Virus record (IMG/VR): IMGVR_UViG_3300023487_000043
Span: 1-6,094 of that record
Strand: one strand, 5' to 3'
Length of the DNA: 6,094 bases
From: a virus
Taxonomy: Duplodnaviria; Heunggongvirae; Uroviricota; Caudoviricetes
The notes under the pieces were generated by a model. That model saw nothing but the letters and a program-made list of their open reading frames with translations, did not search any database and was not told the DNA's origin. The first letter of the stretch is position 1. Each line of letters opens with the position of its first letter. Position numbers and translations under genes: made by a program. Below are positions 1,911 through 5,870 of the stretch, one piece after another.

Positions 1911-2561
1911 TTATGGAAGGTTTGCTAGTTTTGCATCGACAACTACGCCGATGATTTTGCAGTTTCCGTTGATCTCGATCATCGGATATTGTGGGTTAAG
2001 TGGTTTTAGAAACTTCCTGCCTGCATCAATAACTAACTTCTTGAAAGTTGCCTCGTTTTCTCCTTCGAGCTTTGCAACTACCAGTTTCCCGTTACGCGGC
2101 TCTACTTCAGGATCGACGAGTATTATCATTCCTTCAGGGATACTGAGACCGGCCGGAGCCGTCATTGAGTCTCCCTTCACATCCAACCAAAACGAATCTT
2201 CTGAACAGTCTACGGTTGTATCGTACCAGTTATCTATTGCACGCTTATGATATGGTTCTACAGCTTCCATCCAGCATCCTGCGCTCACCCAGCTAATCAG
2301 AGGGTATGACCCTCTTGGATCATGCCTACTGTGATAGGCAATGTTTGAAAGACTTTCCTCTCCTTTCATCAGATAGTCAGGGGAACACTTCAACGCATTA
2401 GCCAGGGCGAGAAGATTCTCTCCATTTGGCTCTGTCTCAGAGCGTTCCCACTGAGATATGGCAACATTAGACACGCCGACCATCTTTCCAAGTGCGGCCT
2501 GCCTGATCTTGAGTTCTTTTCTCCGAGCGCGAATGCGCTCTCCCATCAATTGAGTTTTCAT
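1911..2561 (-). CDS. c2: Prophage repressor, P22 c2-type (N-terminal HTH, C-terminal S24/LexA-like autopeptidase)
   Basis: 216 aa. Near-identical by recollection to P22 C2 (MKTQLMGERIRARRKELKIRQAALGKMVGVSNVAISQWERSE...). C-terminal GDSM serine motif. Divergent from cro across an operator region. Confidence 0.93.
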   Translation of the reverse strand: MKTQLMGERIRARRKELKIRQAALGKMVGVSNVAISQWERSETEPNGENLLALANALKCSPDYLMKGEESLSNIAYHSRHDPRGSYPLISWVSAGCWMEAVEPYHKRAIDNWYDTTVDCSEDSFWLDVKGDSMTAPAGLSIPEGMIILVDPEVEPRNGKLVVAKLEGENEATFKKLVIDAGRKFLKPLNPQYPMIEINGNCKIIGVVVDAKLANLP

Positions 2562-2834: not shown

Positions 2835-2877
2835 GCTCTTTAACAGTCATGGTCCTCATTCCCGCCGAAATGCGGGA
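2835..2877 (+). promoter_or_regulatory. nutR (boxA + boxB)
   Basis: GCTCTTTAACA (2835-2845), 14-nt spacer, hairpin TCCCGC-CGAAAT-GCGGGA (2860-2877), identical to the nutL boxB. Confidence 0.65.
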
Positions 2878-2884
2878 ATACAAC

Positions 2885-2902
2885 GCGCATAAGTTGATGC
2901 GC
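2885..2902 (+). other. Hairpin between nutR and cII (tR1-like position)
   Basis: GCGCAT (2885-2890) / ATGCGC (2897-2902) with 6-nt loop, followed by a T-rich stretch. Lambda tR1 is Rho-dependent, so function here is uncertain. Confidence 0.3.
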
Positions 2903-2917
2903 ATAACTTCTTATTTG

Positions 2918-2958
2918 TTAAGGAAATACTTACATATGGTTCGTGCAAACAAACGCAA
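2918..2958 (-). promoter_or_regulatory. pRE with CII-binding TTGC-N6-TTGC repeats
   Basis: Minus strand TTGCGTTTGTTTGC (plus 2945-2958) overlaps the first cII codons; -10-like AAGTAT (plus 2926-2931). Matches the lambda pRE arrangement by recollection. Points leftward through cro toward c2. Confidence 0.65.
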
Positions 2959-3229
2959 CGAGGCTCTAAGAATCGAGAGTGCGTTGCTTAACAAAATCGC
3001 AATGCTTGGAACTGAGAAGACAGCGGAAGCTGTGGGAGTTGATAAGTCGCAGATCAGCAGGTGGAAGAGGGATTGGATTCCAAAGTTCTCAATGCTGCTT
3101 GCTGTTCTTGAATGGGGCGTCGTCGACGACGACATGGCTCGATTGGCACGACAAGTTGCTTCGATTCTCACCAATAAAAAACGCCCGGCGGCAACCGAGC
3201 GTTCTGAACAAATCCAGATGGAATTCTGA
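2936..3229 (+). CDS. cII: CII transcriptional activator (lambda-type)
   Basis: 97 aa MVRANKRNEALRIESALLNKIAMLGTEKTAEAVGVDKSQISRWKRDWIPKFSMLLAVLEWGVVDDDMARLARQVASILTNKKRPAATERSEQIQMEF, essentially identical to lambda CII by recollection. The ORF-track start at 2849 is an upstream frame extension. Confidence 0.92.
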   Translation: MVRANKRNEALRIESALLNKIAMLGTEKTAEAVGVDKSQISRWKRDWIPKFSMLLAVLEWGVVDDDMARLARQVASILTNKKRPAATERSEQIQMEF

Positions 3230-3251
3230 GGTAATTACTGGATCAATCCAC
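3176..3251 (-). ncRNA. OOP-like antisense RNA (terminator present, promoter uncertain)
   Basis: Minus strand CGCUCGG-UUGCCG-CCGGGCG followed by UUUUUU (plus 3182-3201, A-run 3176-3181) inside the cII 3' end, as in lambda OOP. The 5' end is inferred by analogy at about 3251. Confidence 0.45.
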
Positions 3252-3261
3252 AGGAGTAATT

Positions 3262-3906
3262 ATGACATACGAAAATGACAAATTCCAGGTTCTGAAGAGC
3301 ATGAAGGTGCCAGATGATTTTAAATCAAATGGCTTTGTTTATGTGCTTTCGAATGAGTGCATGCCAGGAATTTATAAGATTGGGATGACTAAGCATTCAC
3401 CAGAAGTTAGGGCTAAAGAAATTTCAGCCTCTACTGGCGTTCCTAAGCCATTTAAGGTGATAGCAGCCTTTCATTCAAATAATCCAGCATCAGATGAAAA
3501 ACTCATTCATAAAGCCTTTGCAAAAGAGAGGCTTAGTGATAATCGAGAGTTTTTCAAGCTTGAAGATAATGAGCTTTCTGAATCTCTAAATGAAATAAGG
3601 GCGCTGGTTGGCCCTGAAAGAAATGGCGAGACGGCAGAATACGCAATTTACGACGCATTCATTTCTTTTCGCCATGAAAATGAGCTTGATCTTAATGAGG
3701 AGCTTATAGAGCAAGGTCTGGGTAGTGTAGTTGGTCATCTTCCTGCGGTGAAAAATTTCCTTATTCGCGCCGGAATTGATTACGCGAAGCAACTGATAAG
3801 CAAATATAACTCATCGATAGTTATTAATACAGATGGCAGTGTGGTGATGGTTAAGTCTCTTGAAGCCCAATGCTTTGATGCGGAGGTTGGAAATGAGCCT
3901 GGCTGA
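3262..3906 (+). CDS. T5orf172 / GIY-YIG-like domain protein (214 aa) with uncharacterised C-terminal half
   Basis: AGGAG (3253-3257) then ATG 3262. Motifs GFVYVLSN...PGIYKIGMT...EVRAKE...PFKV...EKLIHKAF...NREFF match the T5orf172 pattern. AT-richer than flanking genes by eye. Sits between cII and the O-like gene. Confidence 0.7.
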   Translation: MTYENDKFQVLKSMKVPDDFKSNGFVYVLSNECMPGIYKIGMTKHSPEVRAKEISASTGVPKPFKVIAAFHSNNPASDEKLIHKAFAKERLSDNREFFKLEDNELSESLNEIRALVGPERNGETAEYAIYDAFISFRHENELDLNEELIEQGLGSVVGHLPAVKNFLIRAGIDYAKQLISKYNSSIVINTDGSVVMVKSLEAQCFDAEVGNEPG

Positions 3907-4735
3907 AGTATTTTACCTGCCGAAGAGTGAACCTGTTGAACAGGAGCGAAGAGTGGCTGATATCGATGATGGTTACACCAGATTCGCTAACGAGCTGCTG
4001 GAAGCTATCGCAAGTGCCGATTTAACCGCTCGCCAGTTGAAAGTTATGCTGGCCTACGTCCGGAAAACATATGGCTTCAATAAGAAAACAGATCGAATAG
4101 CCGATGAGCAAATTGCTCAGTTAACAGGACTGTCAAGGCAGAATGTTAACAAGGCTAAAAAAGAACTGATTTCAATGAATTGCCTGTTTATGGATGGAAA
4201 TCAAATCGGTGTAAACAGGGAGGTATCTGCGTGGCAATTCAGCAAGTGTCTCCAAGTTAGCAACTTTGTCTCGAAGTTAGAGACAAAAAGTGTCTCCAAA
4301 TTAGAGACACTCAATGTCTCGAAGTTAGAGACACACAAAAGACATTCTTTAAAGACAAAAGAAAATATTAATAAACCCCCTATATCCCCCAAAAAAGTTT
4401 CTCAGAAGTTCGACCCGCTAGAAACAGAGTTGCCTGATTGGTTATCAGCAGAAACATGGTTGTCGTGGGTTACCTATCGCAAGGAGATAGGTAAGTCGAT
4501 CAAGTCTAAGCAAAGTGTCACTCAGGCTATCAACGTTCTATGCAGAAGTCTGGAGAAGGGATATACACCTGAAGAAATTATAAACCAGAGCATCGCCAGT
4601 GGTTGGCAGGGTATTTTTGAGCCCAAGACTCCAAAGGGGAAATCTCAACCGAGGCCGCAGCATCGAGCTATGCAGGAAAACTTTGCCACCAAAGATTACG
4701 GACAAACTGAAATGCCTTCATGGGCGCAGGAGTGA
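3893..4735 (+). CDS. Replication initiator, lambda O-like (280 aa from ATG 3893)
   Basis: QERRVADIDDGYTRFANELLEA...RQLKVMLAYVRKTYGFNKKTDRI aligns with the lambda O N-terminal domain (QERNVADLDDGYARLSNMLLEA...). GGAGG 6 nt before ATG 3893. Iterons lie mid-gene. The upstream TTG (3860) and ATG (3878) lack an SD. Confidence 0.85.
   Translation: MSLAEVFYLPKSEPVEQERRVADIDDGYTRFANELLEAIASADLTARQLKVMLAYVRKTYGFNKKTDRIADEQIAQLTGLSRQNVNKAKKELISMNCLFMDGNQIGVNREVSAWQFSKCLQVSNFVSKLETKSVSKLETLNVSKLETHKRHSLKTKENINKPPISPKKVSQKFDPLETELPDWLSAETWLSWVTYRKEIGKSIKSKQSVTQAINVLCRSLEKGYTPEEIINQSIASGWQGIFEPKTPKGKSQPRPQHRAMQENFATKDYGQTEMPSWAQE
4247..4400. repeat. Replication origin: four iterons plus AT-rich region inside the O-like gene
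   Basis: 17-bp iterons at 4248-4264 (GTCTCCAAGTTAGCAAC), 4268-4284 and 4316-4332 (GTCTCGAAGTTAGAGAC), 4292-4308 (GTCTCCAAATTAGAGAC), each with GTCTC/GAGAC dyad ends. Followed by an A/T-rich tract 4333-4400. Confidence 0.8.
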
Positions 4736-4737
4736 AC

Positions 4738-5583
4738 ATGACGCTGGATGAAAAGATCTCCCAACTGGAGAAAAAACTTGCAGAATTGAGTTCTCCGCCA
4801 ATTGCTATCGAGCATACAGCTGTAGAAATTGGCACTGGCATCTGTGAAAAACATGGTGAGTTTGAGCAGCGTAACCGTTACTCGACTGGGCCAATTAAGT
4901 TTGCCTCAAGACCTAGCGAATGCCCGGAATGCATGAGAGATGAGCTTATTCGGCTACAGGCAGAGAAGATTAAAATCGACGAGGAATCACGTAAGCGCAA
5001 TGTCGAGTTTCTGTTGAATAATCTTGATATTCCTGAACGATTCAAGGGTTGCACACTACAGAACTACGAGCCAGTCAACGACGATGCAAAGAGAGTGCTC
5101 AGGGTGTGTCAGGCATACGCCAGCAAATGGCCTGAGAGGTTACAGAAAGGCGGTGGGCTGGTTATGTGTGGAAAGCCTGGTACTGGAAAGAATCATCTTG
5201 CACTGGCTATCGCCCGGCACGCAATTACGGAACATCAAAGCTCAGCTATTTTCACAACGGCGCTGAAAATTGCCAGAGAATATAAATCAACATGGTCGAA
5301 AAACTCCACCCGCACAGAGGATGAAGTGATCCGACAGTTCACTAAACCTGACCTGCTAATTATCGATGAGGTTGGTGTGCAGTTCGGAAGCGAGGCGGAA
5401 AAGATGATCATGTTCGAAATCATCAACACCCGCTACGAGCGCATGAAGCCAACAATCCTGATTAGCAACCAGAGCAAAGATGAACTGTCTGCATTCATTG
5501 GTGAGCGTGTTATTGACAGGATGAATGATGGCGGCGGATGCACCCTTGCGTTTACATGGGATAGTTACAGGAGCAGAACGTGA
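4738..5583 (+). CDS. DnaC-like helicase loader (AAA+ ATPase, IstB/DnaC family)
   Basis: Walker A GKPGTGKNHLALAI and Walker B LLIIDEVG. AGGAG (4728-4732) 5 nt before ATG 4738, directly after the O-like stop (4733-4735). The ORF-track start at 4720 has no SD. N-terminal Cys/His cluster (CEKH...CPEC). Confidence 0.85.
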   Translation: MTLDEKISQLEKKLAELSSPPIAIEHTAVEIGTGICEKHGEFEQRNRYSTGPIKFASRPSECPECMRDELIRLQAEKIKIDEESRKRNVEFLLNNLDIPERFKGCTLQNYEPVNDDAKRVLRVCQAYASKWPERLQKGGGLVMCGKPGTGKNHLALAIARHAITEHQSSAIFTTALKIAREYKSTWSKNSTRTEDEVIRQFTKPDLLIIDEVGVQFGSEAEKMIMFEIINTRYERMKPTILISNQSKDELSAFIGERVIDRMNDGGGCTLAFTWDSYRSRT

Positions 5584-5870
5584 CTGGAAAAGAAATCATC
5601 CTGGAATATCTGAAAACTCATGAACAATTCTCCCCACATGAATTAGCACTGATCACCGGAATACCAAATAACAGAATCGCTCAAGCAGCAAGGCATATGG
5701 TGAAACAAGGACATTTGAGTGTTGTTGAGCGTAAGTGGAAGACGGTTATTTATGCAAAACGCAAAGTGAAGAAGGAGCCAATTAAAAGAAATCCAGATGG
5801 TACGGGGTGGGGATGTGCAAATCCAATGACGGCGTTTATTAATAGGGCGCTTATGGAGGTAAGGCAATGA
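5580..5870 (+). CDS. Ren-like small protein (96 aa), possibly winged-helix
   Basis: GTG start overlapping the loader stop (GTGA) with AGGAG 6 nt upstream. N-terminus MTGKEIILEYLKTHEQF resembles lambda Ren by recollection, and the gene follows the helicase loader as ren follows P. Confidence 0.5.
   Translation: MTGKEIILEYLKTHEQFSPHELALITGIPNNRIAQAARHMVKQGHLSVVERKWKTVIYAKRKVKKEPIKRNPDGTGWGCANPMTAFINRALMEVRQ

What the first reader, a model, noticed from the sequence alone, without database searches (positions are those of the whole stretch)
4247..4400. Iteron origin with dyad-symmetric 17-bp repeats encoding a VSKLET peptide repeat
Four iterons at 20-24 bp spacing, each bounded by GTCTC...GAGAC, are followed by an A/T-rich tract. 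This is an ori-lambda-like architecture with a different iteron sequence, implying different initiator specificity. Because the origin is in-frame in the O-like gene, the repeats are translated as FVSKLETKSVSKLETLNVSKLET in the inter-domain linker.
Basis: seen in the sequence. Interest (0 to 1): 0.4.

Follow-up and report, generated by a model that had tools for sequence, protein, structure and literature searches.

The report
Lambdoid prophage origin, GTCTC-type iterons
This is the replication origin of a lambda-like E. coli phage, sitting inside its own initiator gene as in phage lambda but with a different repeat sequence; it is an ordinary, if neatly documented, new specificity variant of a textbook system.

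Summary
Four copies of a 19-nt repeat (TGTCTC-N7-GAGACA) start at 4247, 4267, 4291 and 4315. Copy 1 has a degenerate right arm. The least stable duplex tract of the window (4333-4375) follows directly.

The repeats lie in an O-like initiator gene (3893-4735), just after its Phage_rep_O N-terminal domain. A DnaC-like loader gene comes next.

The geometry nearly copies annotated ori-lambda: spacing 20/24/24 against 20/24/23. Both are followed by ACACAAAAGACA and an A-rich tract.

Across about 47 distinct relatives the arms are invariant, even at synonymous codon positions. The centre and the encoded peptide vary, so selection acts on the DNA.

Iteron type tracks the N-terminal domain and not the C-terminal domain. 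The GTCTC type goes with 68-100% N-domain identity. The GTCAC, P22 (TTACC), HK97 (TTAGC) and lambda (TCCCT) types go with 47-63%.

The same N-domain-plus-iteron module occurs with DnaC-like, DnaB-like, lambda-P-like and DUF6475 partners. Copy number ranges from 2 to 10 in natural prophages.

The sequence is about 99% identical to phages N7, mEpX1 and Bas106, where the gene is annotated but the origin is not. Verdict: a new member of a known kind, of low to moderate interest.

The parts
3893..4735 (+). O-like replication initiator gene (280 aa, stop included). ATG at 3893 is preceded by GGAGG at 3882-3886.
   Evidence: ORF list. Pfam Phage_rep_O aa 20-114, E = 4e-36. PHROG 'replication initiation O-like', E = 2e-80. 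Annotated as O-like in phages Bas106, mEpX1 and N7 at 98.7-99.9% identity.
3950..4234 (+). Coding region of the N-terminal origin-binding domain (aa 20-114), a putative winged helix. The candidate recognition helix is around aa 81-94 (LSRQNVNKAKKELI).
   Evidence: Pfam match. 48% identity to lambda O aa 5-115. Type-specific residues cluster at aa 39-52 and 79-84. Low-confidence AF2 topology: H64-78, H82-94, E98-101, E104-107. Weak CRP/FNR winged-helix hits, E = 0.08.
4247..4265 (.). Iteron 1, TGTCTCCAAGTTAGCAACT. The left arm and centre are intact; the right arm is degenerate (probably a weak site or half-site). It is read in a different frame from iterons 2-4.
   Evidence: Positions 1-12 are invariant in 47 distinct relatives, including four wobble positions.
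4267..4285 (.). Iteron 2, TGTCTCGAAGTTAGAGACA (perfect 6-bp dyad arms, 7-nt centre).
   Evidence: Arms invariant, centre variable.
4291..4309 (.). Iteron 3, TGTCTCCAAATTAGAGACA.
4315..4333 (.). Iteron 4, TGTCTCGAAGTTAGAGACA. It abuts the A/T-rich tract.
   Evidence: It occupies the same position relative to ACACAAAAGACA as lambda iteron 4.
4333..4375 (.). A/T-rich, A-strand-biased tract (ACACAAAAGACATTCTTTAAAGACAAAAGAAAATATTAATAAA). Inferred DNA-unwinding element.
   Evidence: Least stable 30-nt window of the 6094 bases, z = 3.0. Its start is identical to the lambda ori A/T-rich region. It is conserved in relatives carrying all five iteron types.
4376..4390 (.). CCCCCTATATCCCCC block bounding the A/T-rich tract (encodes PPISP). 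Role unknown; possibly a G+C clamp, or only a proline-rich linker.
   Evidence: Conserved as C5-TAWAK-C5 in the GTCTC, GTCAC and TTACC loci, with a related CCCCCTTACCCCC in P22 and HK446. Absent from lambda, Sf101 and Pm34.
4391..4732 (+). Coding region of the C-terminal domain of the initiator. It is unrelated to the lambda O C-terminus and is inferred to recruit the helicase loader.
   Evidence: No similarity to lambda O beyond aa 115. No Pfam family. PHROG 18589 and 6451 'primosomal protein'. AF2 gives three helices at pLDDT about 70, aa 186-236.
4738..5583 (+). DnaC-like AAA+ helicase loader gene. It takes the place of lambda P and starts 2 nt after the O stop codon.
   Evidence: Pfam IstB_IS21 E = 2e-18 and Bac_DnaA E = 2.5e-8. 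PHROG 50 'DnaC-like helicase loader', E = 6.5e-86. Annotation of Bas106 and mEpX1.

Best explanation
The region 4247-4390 is the origin of theta replication of a lambdoid (pro)phage of Escherichia, embedded in its own initiator gene.

Inferred mechanism, by homology with ori-lambda:
1. Dimers of the O-like protein bind the dyad-symmetric iterons through the N-terminal winged-helix domain. There are three full sites and one weak site, each TGTCTC-N7-GAGACA.
2. The bound dimers assemble into a wrapped nucleoprotein complex, the 'O-some'.
3. On supercoiled, transcriptionally active DNA, the strain opens the adjacent A/T-rich tract (4333-4375).
4. The C-terminal domain of the initiator brings in host DnaB through the phage's DnaC-like loader (4738-5583) instead of lambda P.

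The iteron sequence and the N-terminal domain form one specificity module, here the GTCTC type. It is distinct from the lambda, P22, HK97 and GTCAC types. The VSKLET peptide repeat is a by-product of translating the binding sites in a length-tolerant linker.

Shown here: the repeats, their statistics and geometry, the homology of the gene and of the A/T-rich tract, DNA-level purifying selection on the arms, and covariation with the N-domain.

Inferred: binding, unwinding, loader recruitment and origin firing.
For: 1. Four in-register repeats at spacing 20/24/24, with 0 of 200 shuffles matching.

2. The host gene has a Phage_rep_O domain and is 48% identical to lambda O in the N-terminal 111 aa.

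3. The lambda record annotates four ori iterons at 39034, 39054, 39078 and 39101, a spacing of 20/24/23. They begin at codon 117 of O; here the repeats begin at codon 119.

4. After the last iteron both phages read ACACAAAAGACA and then an A-rich tract. That tract is the least stable 30-nt stretch of the window.

5. The P22 record annotates a rep_origin 'similar to phage lambda' at the equivalent place in gene 18. It has TTACC-type repeats and the same ACACAAAAGACA.

6. In 47 distinct GTCTC-type sequences, 83 of 98 third-codon positions of the N-domain coding part vary. In contrast, 0 of 6 wobble positions inside the arms of iterons 2-4 vary, while centre positions 7, 10, 11 and 12 vary freely, including non-synonymous changes. 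A rough chance estimate is 0.15^6, about 1e-5.

7. Iteron 1 is read in another frame, yet its left 12 nt are invariant.

8. Iteron type follows the N-domain. GTCTC goes with 73-100% N-domain identity in 67 distinct proteins, whatever the C-terminal identity (0-100%). GTCAC goes with 57-63%, TTACC with 47-50% and lambda with 48%, although those C-termini are 54-67% identical to the window's. Proteus phage Pm34, at 68% N-domain identity, still has GTCTC iterons.

9. In 2.9 million viral contigs, 65 of 66 loci with two adjacent GTCTC-type iterons have them in this context.

10. Near-identical sequence occurs in isolated, plaque-forming phages N7, mEpX1 and Bas106.

11. Background on O, iterons and the A/T-rich tract: PMC7466680 and PMC3349717.
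Against: - There is no experimental evidence for this iteron type. No paper in the searchable library contains the sequence, and none of the phage records annotates an origin here.
- Iteron 1 lacks a right arm, so only three full sites are present.
- The iteron centres (GAAGTTA, CAAATTA) lack the lambda-type A4 tract, so intrinsic bending may differ. Curvature was not computed.
- The C-terminal half of the initiator and the loader are not lambda-like, so the steps after O binding are less securely transferred.
- The structure model was of low confidence (mean pLDDT 44.6).
- Invariant palindromic arms alone would also fit a hairpin-based function.
Confidence: 0.9

Rival explanations
1. A coding tandem repeat only. 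The VSKLET repeat is a protein-level low-complexity linker that arose by slippage, and the DNA has no cis-acting role.
For: - Copies 2-4 are exactly 24 nt (8 codons) apart and in frame.
- Copy number varies in 24- or 48-nt steps among prophages, as for a minisatellite.
Against: - Synonymous positions in the arms are invariant, while the peptide changes. Examples are VSKSET, VSSLET and VSNPET in relatives.
- Copy 1 shares the DNA motif in a different reading frame.
- The DNA is dyad-symmetric, which a peptide repeat does not require.
- The motif covaries with the N-terminal DNA-binding domain.
- The arrangement is positionally homologous to the annotated lambda and P22 origins.
Confidence: 0.03
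2. A nucleic-acid structure element. The palindromes act as hairpins or a cruciform in mRNA or single-stranded DNA, for example as an antisense terminator, a translational pause or a primosome-assembly site, not as protein-binding iterons.
For: - The 101-nt stretch folds far better than shuffles as ssDNA (-20.2 kcal/mol, z = -5.6).
- A terminator-like site is called on the minus strand at 4312-4288.
- Dyad symmetry is kept in every iteron type.
- PMC7466680 discusses possible hairpins in lambdoid origins.
Against: - Within the type the arms never show compensatory double changes; they are simply invariant.
- Arm sequence switches only together with the initiator's N-domain.
- No Rfam family matches.
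- The strong fold is an automatic consequence of repeated palindromes.
- Hairpins could contribute to origin function, so this is not a true alternative.
Confidence: 0.03
3. Binding sites for a different factor, or an origin remnant that is no longer used. The repeats would be operators that autoregulate O or titrate another protein, or this element replicates from another site.
For: - Lambda iterons cloned on plasmids do act as inhibitory or titrating sites (PMC3349717).
- Only 6 kb of the element is visible, so a second origin cannot be excluded.
Against: - Strong purifying selection on the arms across many prophages and isolated phages argues against a remnant.
- The adjoining conserved unwinding tract and the loader gene next door are what an active origin needs.
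- No other repeat family or DnaA-box cluster is present in the window. There is 1 DnaA-box match against 0.8 expected.
Confidence: 0.04

Closest known systems
ori-lambda with the O initiator (Escherichia phage lambda, NC_001416 39034-39160)
   Same: - The origin lies inside the initiator gene, directly after the Phage_rep_O N-domain (codon 117 in lambda, 119 here).
- Four 18-19-bp dyad-symmetric iterons at spacing 20/24/23, against 20/24/24 here.
- An A-rich unwinding tract starting ACACAAAAGACA.
- The gene follows cII and precedes the helicase-loading gene.
   Different: - Iteron arms are TCCCT/AGGGA in lambda and GTCTC/GAGAC here.
- The N-domain is only 48% identical.
- The first iteron here is degenerate.
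- The centre lacks the A4 tract.
- The right side has a C5-TATAT-C5 block in place of lambda's palindromic region.
- The C-terminal domain is unrelated, and the partner is a DnaC-like AAA+ loader instead of P.
P22 ori in gene 18 (NC_002371 rep_origin 32840-32984), and the HK97/HK446 and Sf101 origins
   Same: - The same in-gene layout.
- The same ACACAAAAGACA-led A-rich tract.
- P22 and HK446 carry a related CCCCCTTACCCCC block; Sf101 does not.
- The same family of N-domain, 51-54% identical.
   Different: - Arm sequences differ: TTACC/GGTAA in P22, TTAGC/GCTAA in HK446/HK97, GTCAC/GTGAC in Sf101.
- Partner genes differ: DnaB-like helicase in P22 and HK446, a toprim protein in Sf101.
Origins of Stx phages 933W and P27 (six lambda-type iterons; PMC7466680)
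   Same: Iteron number varies naturally, and each added iteron lengthens the O protein in frame. The distal iterons bind weakly.
   Different: Those phages keep the lambda iteron sequence and the O-P pair. Here the specificity type differs, and copy number ranges from 2 to 10 among relatives.
Plasmid iteron origins (pSC101, R6K, F, P1 with Rep_3-type initiators)
   Same: Directly repeated initiator-binding sites lie next to an A/T-rich unwinding element.
   Different: - Plasmid iterons lie outside the rep gene and are usually not dyad-symmetric.
- They work with DnaA boxes and a different initiator fold family.
- No Rep_3 match and no DnaA-box cluster were found here.

Membership tests
Lambdoid in-gene origin (ori-lambda / O-type initiator system) | Initiator protein with a Phage_rep_O (PF04492) N-terminal domain | tested here: met
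   E = 4.3e-36, 123.8 bits against a cutoff of 28.7, aa 20-114. 48% identity to lambda O.
Lambdoid in-gene origin (ori-lambda / O-type initiator system) | Three or more dyad-symmetric 18-19-bp iterons inside the initiator gene, just after the N-domain coding part, about two helical turns apart | tested here: met
   Copies at 4247, 4267, 4291 and 4315, spacing 20/24/24, starting at codon 119. Lambda: spacing 20/24/23 from codon 117. Copy 1 has only a left arm.
Lambdoid in-gene origin (ori-lambda / O-type initiator system) | A/T-rich, strand-asymmetric tract immediately right of the last iteron, homologous to lambda's | tested here: met
   ACACAAAAGACA followed by an A-rich run, shared with lambda, P22, HK446 and Sf101. 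Least stable 30-nt window of the sequence.
Lambdoid in-gene origin (ori-lambda / O-type initiator system) | Gene order in the early-right operon: cro, cII, initiator, helicase loader or helicase | tested here: met
   CI 1911-2561(-), Cro 2642-2827, CII 2849-3229, then a T5orf172 insert, O-like 3893-4735 and DnaC-like 4738-5583.
Lambdoid in-gene origin (ori-lambda / O-type initiator system) | Iteron sequence is specific to, and co-inherited with, the initiator's N-terminal domain | tested here: met
   GTCTC type goes with 68-100% N-domain identity whatever the C-terminus. The other four types go with 47-63%.
Lambdoid in-gene origin (ori-lambda / O-type initiator system) | Initiator binds the iterons and forms an O-some; the region fires as an origin | not testable with these tools
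   Needs EMSA or footprinting and a replication assay. DNA-level purifying selection on the arms is indirect support only.
Lambda O-P pairing (replication module of the lambda type in the strict sense) | C-terminal domain of O homologous to lambda O, and a lambda P (PF06992) partner gene | tested here: not met
   No similarity to lambda O beyond aa 115. The next gene is IstB/DnaC-like, not Phage_lambda_P. So this is an O-type origin but not a lambda-type O-P module.
Plasmid-type iteron replicon (Rep_3 / RepA initiators) | Rep_3-family initiator, iterons outside the rep gene, adjacent DnaA boxes | tested here: not met
   Only Phage_rep_O is found. The iterons are inside the gene. One DnaA-box match in the window at 4843, against 0.8 expected by chance.

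The most novel reading that the evidence does not exclude
The GTCTC-type iterons and their N-domain form an orthogonal origin-initiator pair. This pair would not be cross-recognised by lambda, P22, HK97 or even the one-base-different GTCAC-type initiators.

The switch between GTCTC and GTCAC would be set by two or three residues of the putative recognition helix (LSRQNVN against LPRQKVN).

The in-frame iteron array, with 2 to 10 copies in natural prophages, would act as a rheostat. It would change origin strength and initiator linker length together.
Probability: 0.35. Interest if true: 0.4.

Novelty: new member of a known kind. Interest (0 to 1): 0.2.

Why it matters
It adds one more iteron specificity class (GTCTC-N7-GAGAC) to the classical set of lambdoid origins. 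It also allows the origin to be annotated in phages N7, mEpX1 and Bas106 and in about 1% of complete E. coli genomes, where it is currently unmarked.

The comparative set gathered here covers five iteron types, all sharing one unwinding tract, with N-domains that covary with the iterons. This is a ready-made natural experiment for working out how O-type winged-helix initiators read DNA. It also offers material for building mutually compatible phage-derived replicons.

It does not change the understanding of how such origins work.

Tried and rejected
- **Structure prediction.** Mean pLDDT was 44.6 and pTM 0.28. That is too poor to test the linker claim or to run a fold search, so only the helix-helix-hairpin topology is quoted, as a hint. 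The homologue search returned almost only near-identical proteins, and I ran no further search on it.
- **PDB sequence search.** Only weak CRP/FNR winged-helix hits at E = 0.08, so there is no solved relative.
- **Rfam.** No family matches in the window.
- **Literature.** A search for the iteron strings found only the lambda iteron, in PMC7466680. The mEpX1 papers do not discuss replication.
- **DnaA boxes.** One match, at chance level.
- **Promoter scan of 3200-4800.** At chance level. The excess of terminator-like hits includes iteron 3 itself and was set aside as a by-product of the palindromes.
- **Candidate inverted repeat right of the A/T tract.** GTTTCT...AGAAAC at 4397-4425 is not conserved in relatives and was dropped.
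- **DNA curvature.** Not computed, because I had no validated wedge parameters to hand.

Full report
**1. Observation**

The repeat finder returns one family of four in-register 19-nt copies:
- 4247-4265 TGTCTCCAAGTTAGCAACT
- 4267-4285 TGTCTCGAAGTTAGAGACA
- 4291-4309 TGTCTCCAAATTAGAGACA
- 4315-4333 TGTCTCGAAGTTAGAGACA

Start-to-start spacing is 20, 24 and 24.

A degenerate pattern with up to three mismatches finds these four sites and nothing else in 6094 bases. The expected number is 0.01, and 0 of 200 dinucleotide-preserving shuffles match it.

Copies 2-4 have perfect 6-bp inverted arms around a 7-nt centre.

The following tract, 4333-4375, has 25 A, 9 T, 3 G and 5 C in 42 nt. By nearest-neighbour free energy it is the least stable 30-nt window of the whole sequence (z = 3.0). 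It is also the least stable 40-nt window inside its gene.

The peptide FVSKLETKSVSKLETLNVSKLET is indeed the in-frame translation. Copy 1 lies 20 nt from copy 2 instead of 24, so it is read in another frame (CLQVSN).

**2. Context**

The repeats lie in a 280-codon gene, 3893-4735, whose ATG is preceded by GGAGG.
- Residues 20-114 match Pfam Phage_rep_O (E = 4e-36) and PHROG 'replication initiation O-like'.
- Residues 4-114 are 48% identical to lambda O, but the C-terminal half shows no similarity to lambda O.
- The next gene, 4738-5583, is a DnaC/IstB-like AAA+ protein.
- Upstream lie a CI-like repressor, a P22-type Cro and a CII.

So this is the early-right replication module of a lambdoid phage.

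The O gene is 98.7-99.9% identical to phages CurroJimenez_Bas106, N7 and mEpX1. The 201-nt origin stretch occurs in 47 of 5426 complete E. coli genomes, always on the chromosome. Those phage records annotate the gene as O-like, but none marks an origin.

**3. Comparison with the reference origin**

The lambda record annotates four ori iterons at 39034, 39054, 39078 and 39101 inside O.
- Lambda's spacing is 20/24/23, starting at codon 117. The window's is 20/24/24, starting at codon 119.
- Directly after iteron 4, lambda reads ACACAAAAGACACTATTACAAAAGAAAAAAGAAAAG.
- The window reads ACACAAAAGACATTCTTTAAAGACAAAAGAAAATATT.

The architecture is therefore positionally homologous, not merely similar. 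Only the iteron arms differ: TCCCT/AGGGA in lambda against GTCTC/GAGAC here.

The P22 record annotates a rep_origin 'similar to phage lambda' at the same place in gene 18. It has TTACC/GGTAA repeats and the same ACACAAAAGACA.

The papers read describe the lambda scheme (PMC7466680 and PMC3349717):
- O dimers bind the iterons.
- The A/T-rich tract is needed for unwinding but not for O binding.
- The two iterons next to the A/T tract suffice in vitro.
- Extra iterons in Stx phages lengthen O in frame.

**4. Is the constraint on the DNA or on the peptide?**

I collected related loci from IMG/VR, both by protein and by a two-iteron DNA pattern.

Forty-seven distinct GTCTC-type sequences align without gaps over the N-domain coding part and the origin.
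- In the N-domain part, 83 of 98 third-codon positions vary.
- In the arms of iterons 2-4, none of the six third-codon positions varies (the C of Val GTC and the G of Glu GAG).
- The arms are otherwise invariant too, apart from a single sequence.
- Centre positions 7, 10, 11 and 12 vary freely, and the peptide changes with them (VSKSET, VSSLET, VSNPET).

Taking 0.15 as the chance that a wobble site stays fixed, six fixed sites give roughly 1e-5. This is a rough figure, because the sequences are related.

The left 12 nt of iteron 1 are also invariant, including four wobble positions, although this copy is read in a different frame. The conservation pattern follows the dyad and not the codons.

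Of the 66 viral-contig loci that hold two adjacent GTCTC-type iterons, 65 have them in this exact context.

**5. Specificity**

I split the initiators at the origin and compared each half with the window's protein.

| Iteron type | Example | N-domain identity | C-domain identity |
|---|---|---|---|
| GTCTC | 67 distinct proteins | 73-100% | 0-100% |
| GTCAC | TGTCACCAAAACAGTGACA, 27 proteins | 57-63% | 54-67% |
| TTACC | 4 proteins | 47-50% | 64% |
| TCCCT | lambda | 48% | none |

Proteus phage Pm34, at 68% N-domain identity, still carries GTCTC iterons. It combines them with a lambda-like right arm and a P gene. HK446 (HK97-like) has TTAGC/GCTAA and Sf101 has GTCAC.

So iteron type tracks the N-domain and not the C-domain, as expected if the N-domain reads the iterons.

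Residues that are fixed within a type but differ between types cluster at aa 39-52 and 79-84. For aa 80-86 the types read:
- GTCTC: LSRQNVN
- GTCAC: LPRQKVN
- TTACC: ILPHKCS
- lambda: LPVKRCN

The second cluster coincides with the second helix of a helix-turn-helix followed by a beta hairpin in the (low-confidence) model.

**6. Modularity**

The GTCTC module is found fused to unrelated C-terminal domains and followed by different partners:
- a DnaC-like loader (the window, L002, L047)
- a DnaB-like helicase (L083, L136, L132; Pfam DnaB_C E = 1e-62 for the L136 protein, the other two assigned by sequence resemblance)
- a lambda P homologue (L043; PF06992 E = 1e-68)
- a DUF6475 protein (L124)

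The megablast match to Hafnia phage Pocitis76 ends at window 4392, the right edge of the origin. The junction of the two halves of the initiator thus coincides with the conserved A/T-rich tract.

**7. Linker claim**

Several observations fit a length-tolerant linker whose sequence is dictated by the DNA sites:
- The Pfam domain ends at aa 114.
- The segment tolerates natural in-frame changes. Arrays have 2 copies in L026, 5 in L012, L015 and L030, 6 in P0061 and 10 in P0001.
- I confirmed P0001 at the DNA level in E. coli assembly GCA_012885585.1: nine perfect iterons plus the degenerate first copy.
- The encoded peptide differs completely between iteron types.

A direct structural test failed. 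The only alignment I was allowed to submit was nearly invariant, and the model had mean pLDDT 44.6.

**8. Rivals**

- A purely coding repeat is contradicted by sections 4 and 5.
- A hairpin or terminator role draws on the strong ssDNA fold (z = -5.6) and a minus-strand terminator-like hit at 4312-4288. Both follow automatically from repeated palindromes. Within the type there are no compensatory changes, and Rfam finds nothing.
- A plasmid-type iteron replicon is excluded. There is no Rep_3 match, the iterons are inside the gene, and DnaA boxes are at chance level.
- A disused origin is unlikely, given the purifying selection and the occurrence in isolated phages.

**9. Verdict**

Region 4247-4390 is the lambdoid origin of this element, of a GTCTC-N7-GAGAC specificity type, working with an O-like initiator and a DnaC-like loader.

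The kind of system has been known since the classical lambda, phi80, 82 and P22 comparisons (my own knowledge, and the reviews cited in PMC7466680). This particular iteron type does not appear in the searchable literature and is not annotated in the matching phage records.

I rate it a new member of a known kind, with interest 0.2. Binding, unwinding and firing are inferred, not shown.

Noticed in passing
window 3262-3906: A 214-aa T5orf172/MUG113-domain gene sits between cII and the O-like gene and overlaps the O start by 14 nt. Phages N7 and mEpX1 lack it: their match to the O gene starts only at window 3938. Bas106 and E. coli locus L155 have it. It occupies the place where P22 has orf48 and the oop promoter, so it looks like a mobile insert or moron.
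   Followed up: partly
L026, L012, L015, L030, L155 (1851-2114); proteins P0061, P0001: The iteron array is polymorphic in natural prophages, with 2, 4, 5, 6 or 10 copies in all. It always changes in 24- or 48-nt in-frame steps. The 10-copy version was confirmed at the DNA level in E. coli GCA_012885585.1.
   Followed up: yes
window 4376-4390: A CCCCCTATATCCCCC block lies directly right of the A/T-rich tract. It is conserved (C5-TAWAK-C5) in the GTCTC, GTCAC and TTACC loci from IMG/VR, and P22 and HK446 have a related CCCCCTTACCCCC. It is absent from lambda, Sf101 and Pm34. It could be a G+C clamp limiting unwinding, or only a proline-rich linker (PPISP).
   Followed up: partly
L083, L136, L132, L043, L124; L153 (Proteus phage Pm34): The same GTCTC iterons and N-domain are fused to unrelated C-terminal domains. 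The partner genes that follow differ: a DnaB-like helicase, a lambda P homologue, a DUF6475 protein or a DnaC-like loader. The recombination joint coincides with the conserved A/T-rich tract.
   Followed up: partly
L049, L051-L078, L154 (Sf101); L079-L084, L151 (P22); L152 (HK446): Three further iteron types share the same layout and the same ACACAAAAGACA tract: GTCAC-N7-GTGAC, TTACC-N7-GGTAA and TTAGC-N7-GCTAA. The GTCAC arrays have five or six copies.
   Followed up: partly
window 4288-4312, minus strand: A terminator-like hit (11-bp stem then a T run) is made by iteron 3, its flanks and the AAAAA spacer. It is probably a by-product of the palindrome, but it would face leftward transcription.
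   Followed up: no
L133 524-600: This is the one viral contig where the two-iteron pattern is not in an origin context. It has three copies of TGTCTC-C6/7-GAGACA, about 22 nt apart, in an unrelated sequence.
   Followed up: no
window 5580-5870: The 96-aa gene after the DnaC-like gene overlaps its stop codon. It matches PHROG families named 'MarR family regulator' and 'Ren-like exclusion protein', and occupies the position of lambda ren.
   Followed up: no
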